DNA from: the human T2T-CHM13v2.0 reference genome, Homo sapiens
Assembly (NCBI RefSeq): GCF_009914755.1
Contig: NC_060925.1
DNA length: 64,000 bases
Direction: 5' to 3' (one strand)
Both the position numbers and the translations under genes were made by a program. This document shows positions 27,752 to 57,364 of the stretch, piece after piece; within the stretch, counting starts at the first letter, position 1; each line of letters opens with the position of its first letter. The notes beneath the pieces are model-generated. The model was not told where the DNA came from and searched no databases. It was given only the letters and a program-made list of their open reading frames with translations.

Positions 27752-28746
27752 ACAATGAGATCACATGGACACAGGAAGGGGAATATCACACTCTGGGGAC
27801 TGTGGTGGGGTCGGGGGAGGGGGGAGGGATAGTATTGGGAGATATACCTAATGCTAGATGACACATTAGTGGGTGCAGCGCACCAGCATGGCACATGTAT
27901 ACATATGTAACTAACCTGCACAATGTGCACATGTACCCTAAAACTTAGAGTATAATAAAAAAAAAAAAAGAAAGAAAAAAAAAAAAAGAATGTGTGTAGG
28001 TGAAGAGAAAATGTAAAAAACTTGTATAGTTTAGATGATTATTTTAATAAGTTGGCAGCAAAAATGAGGAGGCATGAAAACTGCTAAAGGATGTGGTTGC
28101 AAAATTACTCTATTCAGTATCTAATTTTTGCTGTCAGCCAAATAGAGTTCATCGGCAATAGAAAATGTACCCTTCTGAACAGAAATAAATTACATTAAAA
28201 ACCTACGTTTTTGCTGTGTTTCACAGAATAATTTTTTTTAACACACTATTATTATGGCCTAATCTATCACGATTGGTTGGGAACCAACACACTGTAACAG
28301 GAGAGAAGATGCTGGCAGGATTAATCTTCTCCCAAAGACTATTTCCTAGCCAGCTCCCTACTTCTAGATAGCTTTCCTACACTTGGAATGCTCCATCCAG
28401 GGAAGGCATGTATTGTGCAAAGGTGCCATATAACCTCTTCCTTCTTAACAGAAGTACTTTCTGAAAGGCAGACTAAGGTGCTGTGACTTATTCTCATTTT
28501 TTTCCATGAAACTTCAAGTATCATATATGCTAGTGAGAATCAGACAAATGCAAGTGAGAATCAAGGGCAAAATTATATTTTCAATTGTAAAGTTGTCAAA
28601 GGCAAATTATGTGCATGTGGAAATGGTCATAATTTATTTATATTTACTACTATAGCTCTTTAAAATAGAGACATGGGTGAATTCTGGTTTGTTCCTATTT
28701 ATTCTTCTTCATTTTAAAACAAATGTTGAAATATTATGTATTACTA

Positions 28747-29215
28747 TTTTAGTTGTCTACTGCTGCAAGACAAATTACCCCCAAAAGTTAGTGGTTAAAA
28801 TAATAAACATGTATTATCTCACAGTTTCTGTGAGTCAGAAATTCAAAGGTGGCTTAAATGGTTAGTTCTGGCTGAGGATCTTTCATGAAGTTGCAGTCAA
28901 GATTTGGCATTGGCTGCAGTCATCTGAAGGCCTGACTGACCAGAAAATCCATTTCCAAGAAAGCTTATTTCCTCAATCCATAGACCTGAGGACATAGTAG
29001 TTGGCTTCCCCCAGATTAAGTGATGCAAGAAAGAGAGTGAGAAAGGAAGAAGCTGCAGTGCCTTTATGATCTAGCACACATTGACTTCTGCCATATCCTA
29101 CTCATTAGAAATGCATAACTGAGTCCATCCTGCATTCAAAAAGAGCCAAAGTAGACTGCACACTTCAGATGGAGGAATAGAAAAGAATTTGTAGATATAT
29201 TTTTAAACAATCACA
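28747..29215 (-). mobile_element. MaLR LTR (MLT1F-like)
   Basis: ttagttgtctactgctgc...ctcacagtttctgtgagtcag...atttttaaacaatcaca. Confidence 0.75.
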
Positions 29216-29539
29216 ATGATTTAAATTCTATTCTTGGCTTGATTTGATATTTTATTAAGACTTTGACTCCTCCCAATAGTTTTCTTTAGTTTCTTGCATG
29301 TATTTTTAAGTTATACACTTCTTTGTGAACACTCTAAATTAGTGTTGTTGGAATAATGTACATTTTCCTACAGATGAAATGCATAACATTTCATTCTTAT
29401 TAGTTATTATCTATCATGAATAAGGTACTATAGTAGTCAATTTAGACATCACTAATAACTAAAATATAAAGTAGATAGCCAAAAATGCCAGAAGATGAAC
29501 TACTATAGAATAGCAGATAAAACAGGAATGAGCAATCTA

Positions 29540-29730
29540 TGGCTCTGATGGCTGGCTGCCTGTTTTGTAAATAGATTCATTGGAACACAGACTTGCCCAT
29601 TTGTTTACTTATTATCTGTGACTATTTCCACATTATGCAGGCAGAACTGAGTAATTTCAACAGAGACCATATGGCCCACAAAGCCCAAGTCATTTCTGCT
29701 GGATATTTAAAGAAAACACAAAACAGTCAT
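29540..29730 (+). mobile_element. MER58-like hAT DNA transposon
   Basis: ctgcctgttttgtaaata...ttggaacacag...acagagaccatatggcccacaaagcc. Confidence 0.7.
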
Positions 29731-30512
29731 TGAGCCATAGCCAGAATTATTGTCAATATATACCAAGAATTTACATTAAAAATATTTCAAAACACTGATT
29801 CCACATCTAACACACAATTAAAAAAAAAACACCAAGCATTTAGCTAGAATATGCTGTGTTTCAAGATCCAGACAACCATATAATAATTGAAAACATTTCA
29901 CTTTTGGCAAAATAGTATATTTTGCAAAATGGTCTATAAAAACTTTAAAACTCTCTCCTAATATTTTTTAAAGTAACTATATCCTATTTATTAACTAAAG
30001 ACTGATTTAAATTAGAATATTTCCTGTTTGAAACTAAAAAATTTTTAAACATTTATTTAAAAGTTCTTATGCTTAGATGAGTCACCAAAGAGAATATGTA
30101 GAACAAAAAGAGGAAAAGGCTACGAACAATAACATTTAGAGAGTTGGTTCGGAAAAAGAAAACTTAAAGTTGACTATGCATAGGAACAAAGTGAACTGTC
30201 AATAGGAGAATACTGTCTATTTTTTTCCATAGTGTTTCTTCAGACCTTTTCATTGGAGGGTAATACTATGACTTGACAAGTAGGAATGAACACTTTCTGT
30301 TTATTTATAAATACATCACTGTTTCCAAATAGCTAACCTTTGGATCACTTCACTCCTATTTTCAAATGAAATCTGTAAGCTAAGTATTTATTTGACAGCA
30401 TGACTTGTAGCAAGTTACTTTAGCTCACTGTACTTCATCCTGTACCATTTAGGAAGATGTGACTTTAAGTTCATTGGTCTATATGCTCTGTAAAGCAGGG
30501 ATGATGTCTGTA

Positions 30513-30662
30513 TTATCTTCTGTATCCCAGGCAGTAGGCATAAGGGATACAGTATCAGACTGAAGTCATCTGAAGGCTTGACTGACAGTTTATTAATTCG
30601 GGAGCACTTTCCAAGTATCAGACTGTATCCCTTACGCCTACTGCCTGGGATACATAAGATAA
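30513..30662. repeat. 41-bp inverted repeat (30513-30553 / 30622-30662) enclosing templated fragments, inside an L2 3' end
   Basis: Arms 39/41 complementary; 12-bp direct repeat AGTATCAGACTG at 30551-30562 and 30614-30625. Confidence 0.9.
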
Positions 30663-30999
30663 CATACGTAGAATGAATGAGTGAACAACTTAGAGCAGTA
30701 GTGGTGGAAACAGAGGTGAGCCACCCACATTCCCTTTTTATGACATATCTTATTAACCCTGCAATAAGCTCCTTCAAGATTTAGGCCTTAGCAGAGAGGC
30801 CTATATCCAAAGCCTGATTAAGGCGGGGTATAAAAGTCTGGCCATTTGGGCCCAATGTCTGACTACTCTGATGGTCCAAACATTTGGTTGGTCTCTTCCC
30901 TCCTTCTGGGGGATTGCAGAGAAGATTGGGTAAAAGCCAGGATTTAAAATCAAAGTGACCAAATTCCAGAGAAGGTCCAACTCCTAACCAAGACAAGTC

Positions 31000-33521
31000 T
31001 GTTATGCCAAAGTCAGGGTCTTGGTTGAAAAAAAAAAATGGAACTCTGATACTTGTGAAAACAGTATCTGGGCAGAGGTCCCTGAAGATTTTGAACTGCT
31101 AGTCTCTGAACTCTACCAGCTTACACAAGTGGCCTACTTCTTATTATAATTTAGCATTCTCCCCTAACATAACCTCTCCCCTGTAAGAAAACGTAACCCA
31201 GTTAGGATTCCCACCACCTCCTCTTCTAGCCATTATGCCAATAACTAGGGTTAAATCACAGCATAACTTGCTGCACCTGATATAGGCAGAAGGGACTATG
31301 ACCCAAGGGGATAAAAGATCTCGTCAGTATGTACTGGTAGGAGAAGGGGGCATATATGTGGATCTGACTGCACAGGTATTTGATCAAGAGAACCATAATA
31401 TAACATAAATAACATAAAATTAGATATGGAAAAGTTTATTAATTTGGGAGCACTTTCCAAGATAGAGGAATTAACACTCTGGCAAGGACCCCAGGAGGTT
31501 GCACAAGCTCCTACAGTGGGTCCAAGCTGTGAGGCAAGCAGTCCTGTACTTTGGGCCACATGACCTGGCAGACCCTACGGTATTAGAGGAATCAATGGTG
31601 GAAAAATAAGTTATGCAAAGCCTATGTTAAGCCTTGATGGGAAGATCACAGTGCAGGCTCCTGAGATTTTGTATCAAGGCTCTGCCACCTGCAGCAGAGA
31701 TTTAAACACATTTTGAAAAATGAATTCCAGCATACCGGTAGCCTTAGTAGAGTCTGGGCACTTAATCACAGGACACCAAATGACTACACATCTGAATCTC
31801 CTATAAGCTGAGTTCCATCAGATTCATCAAGTCATAAGGCCAACCAGTTCCAGTGCATTCTGGGAAGGAATATGAGCAACACAGAGGCACAAGCAGACTG
31901 CATAAGCAAGTTGTCCATATTCCCAGCCAGTACCTCTTCTTTAGCTGACACCTTTGCTCTCTGGGGGATCCCTTACGACCAGCTGTCAGAAGGAGAAAGC
32001 CCAAACTTGGTTTATGGATAGTAGGCTTCTTACGTAGGTGCAAACTGAAGATGGATGGCAGCTGAGCTACAGCTTCACCCAGAAGTGCCTTAAAAGGCAG
32101 TAACAGGGAACATCTTCTAATGAGCAAGTCTCAGGCAGTGTACCAGATCATTCACTTTGTGAGCAAGAGAGGTTGCTTGAGGTTAGAATAGGTACAGACT
32201 AATGGAAATTTGTGAGTGACCTGGCTGGTTGATTAGGCACCTAAAAGGAAGAATATTGTAAGACTGGGGCCAAGAAGATGTGAGAAACAGGAATATGGGA
32301 GGACATACTGGAGTAGGCACGAAGTGTGAAGATCTTTGTATCACATGTCAATATTTACCAGAGGGTCAAACATGAAAGAGTATCTGCAGGTAGATTTAAT
32401 GACTCAGAAAGCTGACATCAGCAAGCCTTGATCATCAGTCACTTCAGTGCTGGATGATGGATATATGAATGGAATGGACATGGTAGAAGAGATGGAAGGT
32501 ATGCATGAGTCTGACATCATAGGGTGCAATTCAACAAGGCTAATATAAATACTGCTTCCACTGAATATCCAAACTGCCAACAACAGAGAACCATATTAAG
32601 CCCACAACATGGTACCATTCTTTGAGAAGCCCAACCAGCTAGTTGGAGGCAAGTTCATTCTGGAAAGGCCAAAGATTTATTCTAGCAGAAATGACATATG
32701 CTTTGAAAATGGGTGGCCTTCCCCACACTGAGGCCTCAATTAGTACCAGTATTTAGTAGCTTAAAAAGTGTCTAATTTACCATATGGGATCCCCAAAATA
32801 TTATGTCAGAGCAGGGGACTCATTTTATGCAAACAGTGCAGAAGTGGGCCTATGACCATGAGATCTAATTGTCATATTACATCACATCAAGAATTTTCCA
32901 ACTTGAGAGAGCATTGGAATAGCCTGCTAAAGGTACAAACTAAAGTGCCAGCTAGGAGGTGATGCTTTATGAGGATGAGGCACTATCCTATAGGATGAAG
33001 TATATACACTGACTCAAAGACATTTATATGGTACTGGGTCTCTAATAGGAAATATGGATGGGTCTGAAACCAAAGTGTGGAAGCAGAATTAGTTCCACTT
33101 ACTATCACTCTCAATGTCCCAGTGGAGGACTCTGTGCTTTCCATTCCCACAAAATGTGAGCTCTGCAGACATGGAGGCCCTCGTCCTCAAAGGGAACACA
33201 TTTTCACCAAGTGACACAGTGAGAGTCTCACTGAACTATAAGCTATGGCAATCTCTTGAGCCCTTCAATTTCCCTGTGTCCACACCCCAGCAGGCAAAAA
33301 TAAGTCACCATCTTGGCACAGTTAATTCACCCTGATCATCAGAAGAGGGAGAAGATTAATATCACTGAAGTCTTAAAATCAGCTGCAGTGCTAGGGGCTG
33401 TAATTTGTATGACTGATTCCTCTTCTAAGCTTCCCTCAGGAAGAGAATCCACTAGAATCCTAGGACAGCATCTCCCTAAAAGGATATGAAGAAGTAGATC
33501 CAAGCAGAACAAGGAGTAGAC
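31000..33521 (+). mobile_element. Decayed ERVL-class internal region (HERV16-like gag/pol relics)
   Basis: RNaseH- and integrase-like degenerate motifs (tggtttatggatag; catgtcaatatttaccag; cagagcaggggactcatttt; gagagcattggaatagcctgctaaag); PPT-like aaggagtagac before the LTR. Confidence 0.65.
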
Positions 33522-40446: not shown

Positions 40447-41009
40447 TGGGCAAAAAGAGTTAAGAGAGCAGGCTTGAGTTTGCCATCTTTAAAATGGCCT
40501 GCTTACAAGACTGGCTCTTGGCTGATGTCTGGGGAATTTGGATTTGGGGACAGTTCCCAGCATTTCCAAAACTGGCAAGAGTGGTTCATTGTGCCTCAAC
40601 TGTTTGTGCAAACAATATAGTTTATGCTAAACACTTGTTTTCCCTCTGAGAGTTTGGAATTTTGCTACATGATAGCCAGAGGGTAGCTATGTGATCAACC
40701 CCCAGTAAAAATCATGAATACTGAGTCTGTAATGAGCTTTCCTGGTAGATAATATTTAACATGTTATAGCTCACTTCCGAGTTGAGGGTATTAAGCGCAT
40801 ACTGTGTGACTCCACCGGGAAAGGACTCTGGGACACCGCACCGGGTTTCCGCGGGACTTCACACCATGTGCCTTTTGCCTTTGCTGATGCTCTGTATGCT
40901 TTCACTGTAATGAATCTTACTCATGGGTAAGATTCATTCATATGCTGAGTCATGTGAGTCTTACTAGTCAATAATTGAACCTGGGAGTGACTTGGGGACC
41001 CTCAACACA
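40447..41009 (+). mobile_element. MER68-like ERVL solo LTR
   Basis: aaaagagttaagagagcaggcttgag...cttggggaccctcaacaca. Confidence 0.75.
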
Positions 41010-43435: not shown

Positions 43436-46400
43436 AGATGTACAACATTAAAAAATACAAAGAATTGCCAATTACTTAATCTTTTTGAGGTTTTCTGAAA
43501 CTTTTGCTTAACATTCTTTCCTGACATACTTTTGACAATTTTTCATCTTTTCAGTATCGGTTATCATGACATATTGGTATCTTCTACTATACTATGAAAG
43601 CAATCTGGTCTCACAGTCCTTACTCTTACCCGTTTTGTTATATTATTCTAAGATATTTTGTTTCCAAAATCATAGTTAGACATGATTGTCACTTTTTCAT
43701 TCAACAAATATTTATTGAACAACTGATAAGTGAAAGAGTCTTGTGCTAGGCAGTATGAGGAATATAAATAGGAAGGGAAACACAGATTCTTCCCTAAGAC
43801 ATTTATAATCAAAGAGCCTAGGGATATAAATATCTAATACACAGGAAGAAAGTGCTAAAAATTACAAAAGACTACATTTTATCAAATTTAACAAGAGATA
43901 AAGTTTATTTTCAGCTTGGATATTTAGGGAAGATACAAGGAATAGATAAAATTTGGATATATATACAGAGATGGAAGTCTAGGGCATTTCAAAAGAGAAC
44001 TGAAATCAAGTTGATCCAAATCATTAATCTTTGAACAAATGTTTATTGAATATATATTATGTGCCAGGTACTGTATATAAGATATAGTCCTTGAGTTTAT
44101 GGAGATTTTACTCTATTTCCTAAATATCTTTTATAACTTTCCCCTTCATTGCTGCCCAAGTTGAAGCATTTCGCTGTCATTTCTCCTTAATATTACTGCA
44201 ATAACTTTGTTATTGGTCTCCCTTTATCTCCAATTCATCTTTTATCTTGCAGCTGCAAGATATTTCTAACTGGCAATATGACTGTTTCAAAATATTACTA
44301 TAAATTCAATGATCTCCTTACGCTACAGGATACAATGTTAATGACTGTAGATGGCATATATACAGGGTTCCTCATTATTTCATCATTGTCTACTCCTTGT
44401 TCAGACCCTTTCTTTCCTCCCTCCTCCCTTTTACTGTATGATCCAGTGGTATAAAACTAACTGTTATTCAGTATATATTGGTTCTCTCATGATTCTCAGC
44501 CTCTGTACATGTTCTGTTACCTAGAGTGATGCCTAAGGCCTTCTTACATTTTTAGGAAAACTCCTCCACATTATTCAAGGTCCTGCTCAAGAGCTGACTC
44601 TTCTTCAAAGCCCTCCCCTGGTTATCCCACAAAAAAAATGCTGTGCTCTTTTATTATAGCCATAAAATATTGTATCATAATGGATTTTTACTTGTCTCTC
44701 ACGAACACATAAAAAGCAAGAATTTTTTTTAACTATTTATCTGTAACACCTAACGGTTATGTCTGACAAACAATTGGTATCCAAACAATATTTGTGGAAT
44801 AGTGACAGACTCAAAAAGCCAGTGGATTAAGGTTGTAAAGAATGGATGCAAAACATATTACGGATGTAGAATTTATAAAAGTAACTCACTGAAAGTAAGT
44901 ACAAAGGAAAAGAGGGAATATAAGAAAAAAATACTGAGCTTTCATCACCTGGTAACTGGAGAGTGTGGTACCAATTACAGAAAATACTAAGAGGAGGGGG
45001 TGAATTGAATTTTAGAAGAAAGGTGATAAGTGTGGGTTTGAACCCAGTAAGTATTAGGCTTGAAAACCTGAAAACAGCCTCAAACAATGGCATAAATAAG
45101 TTTTAACTTTACTAAAAACTACAGATCAGGGGAAGTGTTCAGATTTAACTTCATCTGTCATTGATTTCACAAACAGAAGTTCCCCTTCATGATTTAGTTT
45201 TTGCTTCACGAATCATGGCGCTTAAAGGACTTAAGGTCCAGAAGGGAAAAGACATATTCAAATAAAAAATGGCAAGAAGTGGTAATAGAAACATGTATAA
45301 AATACAGAGGATACTTGATGTGAAGTATAGAAGTGATACTGGCATTGACTTGTAGAAAAAAAAGTATTTGTAAACTCAAGAAGTTGGGTGGGACATTACA
45401 GGCAACTAGTAGAAGCCAGGTGAGCTGTGACTCATTGTGCCTTACCTACCTCCAGCTATCATGAACTGCTTACAGTACAGTTCTGCAAACGCTCCAGGTC
45501 ATTTCATGCCTTCATGTTTTATTCTCATGCTGTTGTTCCCATTGAAATGTCCTTCCTTATTCCAACTGCTTCACAAGAATCTGTCGCATTTTCAGACTTA
45601 GATTAAGCACACTAATGTCCTCTGAATATACAGACAGTAGCAAATAAATTTTAAAAATTACCTTTCATTTCTTAATTTATCATAGTTCAACATACACATA
45701 GTGTCAATGTACAAAAATAAGGCATGTGGTCACTGCTGTAGAAGAGCTTTCTGTATGGATAGTTCAAGTAAAAAAGTTACTGTGATATCAAACAATGAAT
45801 GCTAAGAACCATAATAGTGTAGATGAAAGTGCTGAAAAGGCTAAAGTAGGAAGAAACGGAATCTAACTGGGCGTGGAGATTAGAAAAGACTTCATGGTTG
45901 AGCAGGTAATTTAAGATGGATCTTGAAAGTTGATGCTTGGTGGACAATGAGGGTGGGAAAGCGAAGGTCTTTAGAGGTGACAGAAACAGCCTGAAACAAA
46001 GGCATAAATAAGTGAGTGATGTTTAATGAATATTGAGTGGCCAGATCATAGGGAGTAAGTTGGAAAGTGTAGGAATAACAACTGTAAAGGTAGGTGAGGA
46101 ATATATTGTGGGTGATCTTAAAAGTCAGAATAAAAATTTTTTACAATTTATATTCTTAAAGCCTCTACAGACTCATTTTCCCCCTTATAATCTACTATGT
46201 CCCATTCCCCTAGCATTTTTTGGAGGCATTTATATCATCTTGGTCTTTTCTGATTTTAGTGACAGCAAATTGATTTTATCAACATACCAGAAAAACATAG
46301 ATTCCAAAACTCATTAATCAGAAAAGTGCTGAGCATAACAACCTTGTATCTCAGCTGTTACTATTTTTCCATTTTTAACTGAAAATGAAAAGGTTATATA

Positions 46401-56485: not shown

Positions 56486-57364
56486 GGTAATAATCTATTT
56501 TCTTAAAAAATATTCTCCTATTCGTGACTTTTAATCACTTTTATCAATAAAATTTTTAAAAATAAAATCTTTATTGAGGTGTACTCTGTAAAAGGCAGAG
56601 TAGTAAGCACTGTGAAAGATATTAAGAAGAATAAAATTAAAGTCTTTCCCACAGGGATGTTCTATTTGCTCAAATAGAACAGAATACATGCCACAGGTTA
56701 AGTACTAAAGGAGGTCTTAGGAGCAGGCACCCTGTGAACTGGAGCAGCTAGAGCTGGCATCACTGGAGAAGTAATGCATGTTCATAACCTCTGAAACAAA
56801 ATTTTGCAATCCATAAATCTCTGAAAACTCAGTTTTCCACAACTCATTTGGTGGCAAACTTGACCTAACTTGGATTGATTTGGCAGTAAAGCTTATTTTG
56901 TTCTGAATAAGGCCATTTATAGTCTTGATTTATTCCAATTAATCTAAACGTCCTTACATTTCACTACAGAAATATTAATATATCTAATTATGGTATGCTG
57001 TCCCACACCCTTCTGGTAGTGGTAAATAAAATACAGCATATGCAACATATTACTTTTCAAAAATCCAAACATTAATGATTTCAAATAATGGATTATGAAA
57101 CTGTAAGTGGGGCCCTGAAAAATATGTGATACTTAACACTGGTAATGAGAAAGCGTCATTTTTAGTGGTGAGGAATGGCATCAGCAAAGGTATAGATTAA
57201 CGAAAGGTAAAAGATTAAGTTCAAAGTACAACAGAGACTGACTCTAAGAGCAATATACATTTAGTGTACAGAAACAGATTAAATATGTTATGTCTAAAAG
57301 TAATCAATTACTGTCTAAACAGTAATAATTATATTCCAGTGTAGAACAGTAAGATGTTAAGATA

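What the first reader, a model, noticed from the sequence alone, without database searches (positions are those of the whole stretch)
30513..30662. Patchwork templated insertion: fold-back copy plus shards copied from 1.6 kb upstream and 0.85 kb downstream
Seen, inside an L2 3' end: 30622-30662 is the reverse complement of 30513-30553 (39/41). The left arm has its own 9-bp fold-back (CTGTATCCC 30520-30528 / GGGATACAG 30544-30552). The spacer is made of 30560-30586, matching 28914-28940 in the MLT1 LTR (25/27), directly followed by 30587-30615, matching 31433-31461 in the ERV relic (28/29). The spacer is bracketed by a 12-bp direct repeat AGTATCAGACTG. Inference: a germline double-strand-break repair scar made by serial template switching (polymerase theta end joining or MMBIR/FoSTeS). 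It records local contacts at the time of repair and leaves a hairpin/dsRNA-forming element in the pre-mRNA.
Basis: partly seen in the sequence, partly recalled or inferred. Interest (0 to 1): 0.7.

Follow-up and report, generated by a model that had tools for sequence, protein, structure and literature searches.

The report
Patchwork DNA repair scar in intron
A 150-base stretch in an intron of the human collagen gene COL24A1 is made of short copies of neighbouring DNA and its own mirror image, likely left by an error-prone repair or copying event in a primate ancestor's germ line; this is a known and probably harmless kind of scar.

Summary
The second piece has one other match in the genome at up to 2 mismatches, its neighbour 846 bp away. 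The first piece is less diagnostic: 12 other matches, one distant copy better than the local one. The unit is single-copy in the searches run. Three of the six isolated local copies found in 264 kb lie in it. Two additions: a possible third donor 430 bp away on the other strand (11/11, p about 0.02), and weak evidence that the pre-event allele was a 16-bp hairpin, so the right arm is not wholly new. Five mismatches in 97 bases suggest a primate-age event, far younger than the donor repeats. Best reading: a complex templated insertion from serial microhomology-guided template switching (about 90% for the class), more like MMBIR/FoSTeS than classical polymerase-theta insertions, whose donors lie within about 30 bp. 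Such multi-template germline events are described, about 30 per person. No function is shown. It is a neat new member of a known kind; interest is low.

The parts
30513..30528 (+). Outer stem, left half (7-bp block plus the 9-bp block 30520-30528); probably old repeat-tail sequence
   Evidence: 15/16 complementary to 30647-30662; flank 30480-30543 aligns weakly to a local repeat-tail profile
30529..30543 (+). 15-nt loop segment; reverse complement of 30632-30646 (14/15, mismatch at a CpG)
30544..30552 (-). Inner fold-back: exact reverse complement of 30520-30528
   Evidence: zero junction microhomology if read as a snap-back from 30543
30551..30562 (+). First copy of the 12-bp direct repeat; forms a 4-bp stem with 5-nt loop at 30550-30562; its first 9 nt match 31045-31053 on the minus strand
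30560..30586 (+). Piece 1, copy of 28914-28940 (25/27); 3-bp microhomology at entry
30587..30615 (+). Piece 2, copy of 31433-31461 (28/29, mismatch at a CpG); 0-bp microhomology at entry
30612..30622 (-). Possible piece 3: exact copy of 31045-31055 on the minus strand, with 4-bp microhomology to the end of piece 2
   Evidence: p 0.022-0.028 from 3000 random positions
30614..30625 (+). Second copy of the 12-bp direct repeat; its last 4 nt can prime fold-back onto 30550-30553
30622..30662 (-). Right arm, reverse complement of 30513-30553 (39/41); 30642-30648 may be old repeat-tail sequence
28914..28940 (+). Donor 1, inside an old LTR-like repeat (about 28740-29200; MLT1 name recalled)
   Evidence: local element 71-77% identical to 8 distant copies
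31433..31461 (+). Donor 2, inside a decayed multi-copy repeat (about 30900-32400; ERV-L-type name recalled)
   Evidence: 15 distant copies, mostly 64-72% identical; 23-39 stops per plus-strand frame
31045..31055 (-). Possible donor 3, one arm of a small hairpin in the same relic

Best explanation
The 150-bp unit is a single-copy patchwork of sequences that match DNA 0.1-1.6 kb away, and it was likely made in a primate ancestor's germ line when a stalled or broken DNA end probably switched templates several times (MMBIR/FoSTeS-like) before rejoining, leaving a scar that is likely neutral. Shown: the pieces, their local matches, sharp edges, junction overlaps of 2, 3, 0, 4 and 4 (or 1) bases, and 5 mismatches in 97 bases. 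Inferred route: a small hairpin (16-bp stem, 15-nt loop) already sat in an old repeat tail; the growing strand paired with the other arm and copied the loop inverted plus 9 bases, then copied 7 bases from 31045-31051 (minus), 3 bases by snap-back, 24 from donor 1, 29 from donor 2, 7 again from the third donor or from its own first copy, and returned to the hairpin. The mirror-image order (left arm old, right arm copied) gives the same product and is not excluded. Confidence about 0.9 for the class (serial local template switching), about 0.6 for this pathway reading.
For: Piece 2: only 2 matches genome-wide at up to 2 mismatches, itself and the neighbour; best match in 15 family loci 16-24/29. 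Piece 1: chance that one of its 12 matches lies within 2 kb is about 1.5e-5; only the local donor and one chr3-contig copy share its last base. Unit single-copy. 3 of 6 isolated local copies in 264 kb are here. Copies differ by 5.2% (95% CI 1.7-11.6%) against 23-36% among family copies; P 2.4e-7 at 25%, so the match is not family resemblance. Microhomologies. Germline multi-template insertions with junction microhomology are described: 33 of 103 and 26 of 99 curated calls in two people (PMC8421209 section 10 part 1). Hairpin creation followed by loop inversion is described for hsa-mir-4713 (PMC10710096, passages).
Against: No orthologue or empty allele could be examined, so the pre-event state and the order are inferred. 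One of the junctions (piece 1 to piece 2) has no microhomology unless a one-base slip is assumed. One distant copy matches piece 1 better than the local donor. The third donor is only moderately significant (p about 0.02-0.03) and 9 nt for the first copy is not significant (p 0.11-0.20). The profile test is weak: the a-priori hairpin parse scored 6.0 bits, within the null range (best 6.6); the 13.7-bit join was picked from 3364 and is a different parse. Sequence alone cannot name the polymerase.
Confidence: 0.6

Rival explanations
1. Polymerase-theta end joining of a two-ended break: repeated aborted priming on both resected ends, with snap-back synthesis, made all pieces in one event.
For: Direct and inverted copies together, short microhomologies, donors on both sides of the site, a repeated 12-mer as from a repeated cycle; both direct and inverted classes and multi-round long insertions are reported (PMC7165422 section 7 part 1).
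Against: Same section: templates typically within 30 bp, first-round tracts rarely over 10 bp, distal templates under 0.1% of repair; here 24-41-nt tracts and donors 0.4-1.6 kb away.
Confidence: 0.2
2. Two steps: a perfect 41-bp palindrome with a 5-nt loop formed first by fold-back; later it was cut near the tip with a stagger and patched with the two pieces, duplicating the 12-mer like a target site.
For: Removing one 12-mer and 30563-30613 leaves exactly that hairpin (sequence); both 12-mers end at the same base; entry and exit overlaps of 3 and 2 bases. Foldback plus end-joining capture is shown in yeast (PMC11724301, passages).
Confidence: 0.12
3. RNA-templated patch: pieces 1 and 2 were reverse-transcribed from the COL24A1 pre-mRNA (minus strand) and used to mend a break (class 2 TSIP-like).
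For: Both pieces have the orientation that copying the pre-mRNA would give and lie in the order of a polymerase moving along it (sequence; gene strand from the hub annotation). RNA-derived patches are proposed for class 2 TSIPs (PMC5110952, passages).
Against: Two of two orientations has p 0.25; the possible third donor and the fold-back need the other strand; no poly(A); published TSIP donors are distant.
Confidence: 0.05
4. A non-autonomous DNA transposon (MITE) with 41-bp terminal inverted repeats and captured fragments, or chance resemblance among old repeats.
For: Terminal inverted repeats; piece 1 is a conserved motif of a large family.
Against: No second copy of the unit, arm or spacer (these searches give lower bounds) and piece 2 unique at 2 mismatches; no duplication in the outer flanks; arms overlap local repeat-tail sequence; identity far above family level.
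Confidence: 0.02

Closest known systems
Complex germline MMB-TI events (MMBIR-linked templated insertions; Osia et al. 2021, PMC8421209; abstract, section 10 part 1 and passages read)
   Same: Insertion built from three or more templates in both orientations, an inverted copy of adjacent DNA, microhomology at most junctions, germline origin.
   Different: Theirs are variants against the reference, found by a template within 100 bp; this one is in the reference, appears old, and two donors are 0.85 and 1.65 kb away.
Polymerase-theta templated insertions (TINS; Carvajal-Garcia et al. 2020, PMC7165422; passages and section 7 part 1 read)
   Same: Direct and inverted local copies, several rounds, 0-4-bp microhomologies.
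   Different: Tract length (24-41 vs rarely over 10 bp) and donor distance (0.4-1.6 kb vs typically within 30 bp).
Short template-switch mutations that create hairpins and invert loops (PMC10710096, passages read; PMC5453318 and PMC7954356, search listing only)
   Same: Long near-perfect stem in an intron; loop inversion between short inverted repeats; 53,666 putative events in primate genic regions, 6,054 of miRNA size.
   Different: Those models allow two reciprocal jumps; this needs five or more and kilobase-distant donors.
Templated sequence insertion polymorphisms, class 1 and 2 (PMC5110952; part 1 of 4 and passages read)
   Same: Templated patch at a probable break; a flanking duplication as in class 1, microhomology as in class 2.
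   Different: No poly(A) or TTTT/A site; donors local, not distant; pieces much shorter; not shown to be polymorphic.
[quoted passage not shown]
   Same: Several copied templates strung together at one locus, returning to the host site.
   Different: Somatic, larger and often from distinct regions; here a miniature local germline version.

Membership tests
Complex MMB-TI (germline templated insertion) | Inserted sequence traced to two or more distinct templates | tested here: met
Complex MMB-TI (germline templated insertion) | Inverted copy of a template within about 100 bp | tested here: met
   41-nt arms 68 nt apart; 9-nt inner fold-back
Complex MMB-TI (germline templated insertion) | Microhomology at most junctions | tested here: met
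   2, 3, 0, 4 and 4 (or 1) bases at five junctions
Complex MMB-TI (germline templated insertion) | Absent from an ancestral or alternative allele | not testable with these tools
   no related genomes held; profile test inconclusive on the exact allele
Polymerase-theta TINS | Templates typically within 30 bp of the break | tested here: not met
   donors 430-1646 bp away; only the fold-back parts are adjacent
Polymerase-theta TINS | Single tracts rarely over 10 bp | tested here: not met
   24-41-nt tracts
Polymerase-theta TINS | Dependence on POLQ | not testable with these tools
   fossil event
Class 1 TSIP (L1 ORF2p-mediated) | Target-site duplication of 5 bp or more | tested here: inconclusive
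   12-bp direct repeat brackets the two pieces but has other parses
Class 1 TSIP (L1 ORF2p-mediated) | Poly(A) tail and TTTT/A insertion site | tested here: not met
   neither present at 30545-30630
MITE / non-autonomous DNA transposon | Multiple copies with shared terminal repeats | tested here: not met
   only self matches (lower bounds); piece 2 unique at 2 mismatches
MITE / non-autonomous DNA transposon | Target-site duplication outside the arms | tested here: not met
   flanks 30505-30512 and 30663-30670 share none
Template-switch-born miRNA hairpin | [quoted passage not shown] | tested here: met
   about 42-bp stem, one mismatch, -82.6 kcal/mol, z -12.2 on the minus strand; criterion from PMC10710096 passage
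Template-switch-born miRNA hairpin | Known family or evidence of processing | tested here: inconclusive
   none of 5 weak Rfam matches overlaps the unit; COL24A1 not in that paper's text or 3 held supplements; no expression data available
L2 LINE 3' end (host repeat; name recalled) | Similarity to the family's 3' end | tested here: inconclusive
   2.0 bits for 30480-30543 as it stands; up to 13.7 bits for a selected join; no repeat library held

The most novel reading that the evidence does not exclude
The two kilobase-distant pieces were reverse-transcribed from COL24A1's own nascent RNA to patch a germline break, and the resulting 42-bp stem became an edited or processed, primate-specific RNA hairpin: a fossil of RNA-templated repair that gave birth to a structured RNA.
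Probability: 0.04. Interest if true: 0.65.

Novelty: new member of a known kind. Interest (0 to 1): 0.2.

Why it matters
As a single site it matters little: it lies about 24 kb from the nearest annotated exon and no function is shown. It is a clear teaching example that complex templated insertions, known from patients, tumours and human variants, also become fixed and stay readable for millions of years in a single genome, without any alignment to relatives. Two or three more single-piece local copies in 264 kb suggest that a self-comparison scan could collect thousands and measure donor distance, orientation and tract length of germline repair through primate history. It would matter more if the predicted 42-bp RNA stem proved to be edited or processed.

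Tried and rejected
Multi-copy element or MITE: rejected. Family resemblance among old repeats: rejected for piece 2 and by age; only partly for piece 1. Assembly artefact: unlikely, since the copies differ at 5 of 97 bases, 2 of them CpG changes. L1-mediated insertion: no poly(A) or endonuclease site. Known RNA family: 5 weak Rfam matches in 28500-32500, none on the unit. Searching the genome with either flank found no repeat relatives, so a tail profile was built from local DNA; it could not settle which arm is ancestral. The background scan is limited to 264 kb near the locus in 10-kb tiles, so pairs across tile edges are missed and no genome-wide rate is given. The 2015 1000 Genomes breakpoint paper, recalled as reporting micro-insertion templates a few kb from breakpoints, was not held and not read (text searches did not return it), so that point is recall only. 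No paper naming this site turned up (none of 10 listed mentions COL24A1); this is not a proof of absence. One search listed only short frames in the relic; no family scan was run on them.

Full report
Setting. By the hub's annotation the window is human chr1 (T2T-CHM13), and the site lies deep in an intron of COL24A1, which is on the minus strand. No related genomes are held, so no orthologue could be read.

Observation. 30622-30662 is the reverse complement of 30513-30553 at 39/41; 30520-30528 and 30544-30552 are exact reverse complements; the 12-mer occurs only at 30551-30562 and 30614-30625. 30560-30586 matches 28914-28940 at 25/27 and 30587-30615 matches 31433-31461 at 28/29; the two abut and both matches end sharply. 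The region folds with z -8.7 as DNA and is the only close inverted repeat of 30 nt or more in the window.

Are the donors really the local ones? Piece 2: an exhaustive pattern search at up to 2 mismatches gave 2 matches in 3.1 Gb, itself and the neighbour. In the 15 other loci of that family returned, the best gap-free match was 16-24/29 (four of these loci matched a different part of the query, so their values are background), and the local relic is mostly 64-72% identical to them (one short alignment 85%). Piece 1 is weaker: 13 matches including itself, 1 distant copy at one mismatch and 11 at two mismatches, among them the local donor. The motif is simply conserved in its LTR family, whose copies are otherwise 71-77% like the local one (8 of 11 distant copies compared). 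Still, the chance that one of 12 matches falls within 2 kb is about 1.5e-5; only the local donor and that one distant copy share the piece's last base; and at one of the two mismatches all 11 distant copies agree with the piece, which suggests the local donor changed afterwards. The unit, the left arm and the spacer each found only themselves (these searches give lower bounds).

Background. In 264 kb (window plus 20 neighbouring 10-kb tiles) there were 74 short, gap-free, 90%-identical local pairs; of the 58 at least 100 bp apart, 6 were isolated (unrelated flanks, at most 3 copies), and 3 of the 6 are in this unit. The other three are single pieces with no second piece beside the two examined. 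So lone local copies are fairly common, and a cluster is rarer.

Additions. (a) 30612-30622 is an exact copy of 31045-31055 on the minus strand and overlaps the end of piece 2 by 4 bases. A match this long covering a 6-nt core arises at 2.2-2.8% of 3000 random positions; the 9-nt match of the first 12-mer is not significant (11-20%). (b) Written as blocks, the unit is A B C B' - X - B C' B' A'. Removing either C B' X B or X B C' B' leaves the same object: a 16-bp stem around a 15-nt loop. If that small hairpin came first, the inner fold-back, which has no microhomology as a snap-back from 30543, becomes a switch with 15/16 bases of homology. (c) Removing one 12-mer with 30563-30613 leaves a 41-bp stem with a 5-nt loop, a second possible precursor. 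(d) Junction overlaps read on the top strand are 2, 3, 0, 4 and 4 (or 1) bases.

Which arm is old? A profile from 35 tail-bearing repeat copies in local DNA (L2 by recall) aligned to 30480-30543 at only 2.0 bits. The common point is that 30642-30648 looks like native tail sequence. This is weak, and the top join is favoured by selection; the exact ancestral allele stays open.

Age. The copies differ from their templates at 5 of 97 bases, 5.2% (95% CI 1.7-11.6%), 2 of them CpG changes. That excludes the age of the donor families (P 2.4e-7 at 25%) and makes an event as young as the human-chimp split unlikely (P 0.006 at 1.2%). With recalled species divergences (about 3% to orangutan, 6-7% to macaque) this points to ape or Old World primate ancestry. 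Errors made during synthesis would make it younger.

Mechanism. Shown: a mosaic of local copies in both orientations with short junction overlaps. Inferred: one growing DNA end hopped between templates. Osia et al. describe germline 'complex' insertions from several templates, 33 of 103 and 26 of 99 curated calls in two people, with microhomology at 138 of 155 and 135 of 148 junctions, and ascribe them to an MMBIR-like process without excluding others. Polymerase-theta insertions are typically templated within 30 bp, with first tracts rarely over 10 bp and distal templates under 0.1% of repair, which fits the 24-41-nt tracts and 0.4-1.6-kb donors poorly. Hairpin creation followed by loop inversion is documented for hsa-mir-4713, and that study notes multi-switch cases its method misses. 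Foldback with end-joining capture and complex multi-fragment insertions are shown in yeast. I put about 0.9 on serial local template switching as a class, 0.6 on the MMBIR/FoSTeS-like reading, 0.2 on polymerase theta, 0.12 on two steps through a 41-bp palindrome, 0.05 on an RNA template and 0.02 on a mobile element or chance.

Consequence. On the pre-mRNA strand the unit is predicted to form a stem of about 42 bp with one mismatch (the CpG change reads as G-U), -82.6 kcal/mol, z -12.2. That is within the 30-55-bp size criterion used for template-switch-born miRNA-like hairpins, of which 6,054 were counted in primate genic regions, but the 68-nt branched loop, the lack of an Rfam match and the absence of COL24A1 from that paper's text and held supplements give no sign of function. 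Supplements not held, including any genome-wide event list, could bear on whether the site was already catalogued.

Verdict. Real, well above chance, and explained as a new member of a known kind: a fixed complex templated insertion. Interest 0.2.

Noticed in passing
window 45072-45101 and 45984-46013: A 30-nt sharp-edged direct copy (28/30, 912 bp apart) with unrelated flanks; probably a second, single-piece templated insertion. No second piece beside it; the stretch found only itself in the genome search.
   Followed up: partly
L043 3168-3196 and 3411-3439: A 29-nt inverted copy (28/29, 243 bp apart) with unrelated flanks; likely a single-piece inverted templated insertion.
   Followed up: partly
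L036 7536-7681 and 8923-9064: An older local duplication of about 145 bp, 1.39 kb apart, only 2 copies in 264 kb.
   Followed up: no
window 40909-40938 and 56658-56681; L035 2373-2394; L043 354-383; L046 7103-7126; L050 5291-5322: Six near-perfect 22-32-nt palindromes in 264 kb, as short template-switch hairpins would leave.
   Followed up: no
window 31040-31075: The possible third donor is one arm of a small predicted hairpin (-4.1 kcal/mol); the other arm (31062-31069) matches 30549-30556 on the plus strand at 8 bases, so either arm could have been used.
   Followed up: partly
L041 8137-8158 and 9394-9415: A 22-nt match (20/22) whose right flank continues weakly; may be two copies of one old repeat and not an insertion.
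   Followed up: partly
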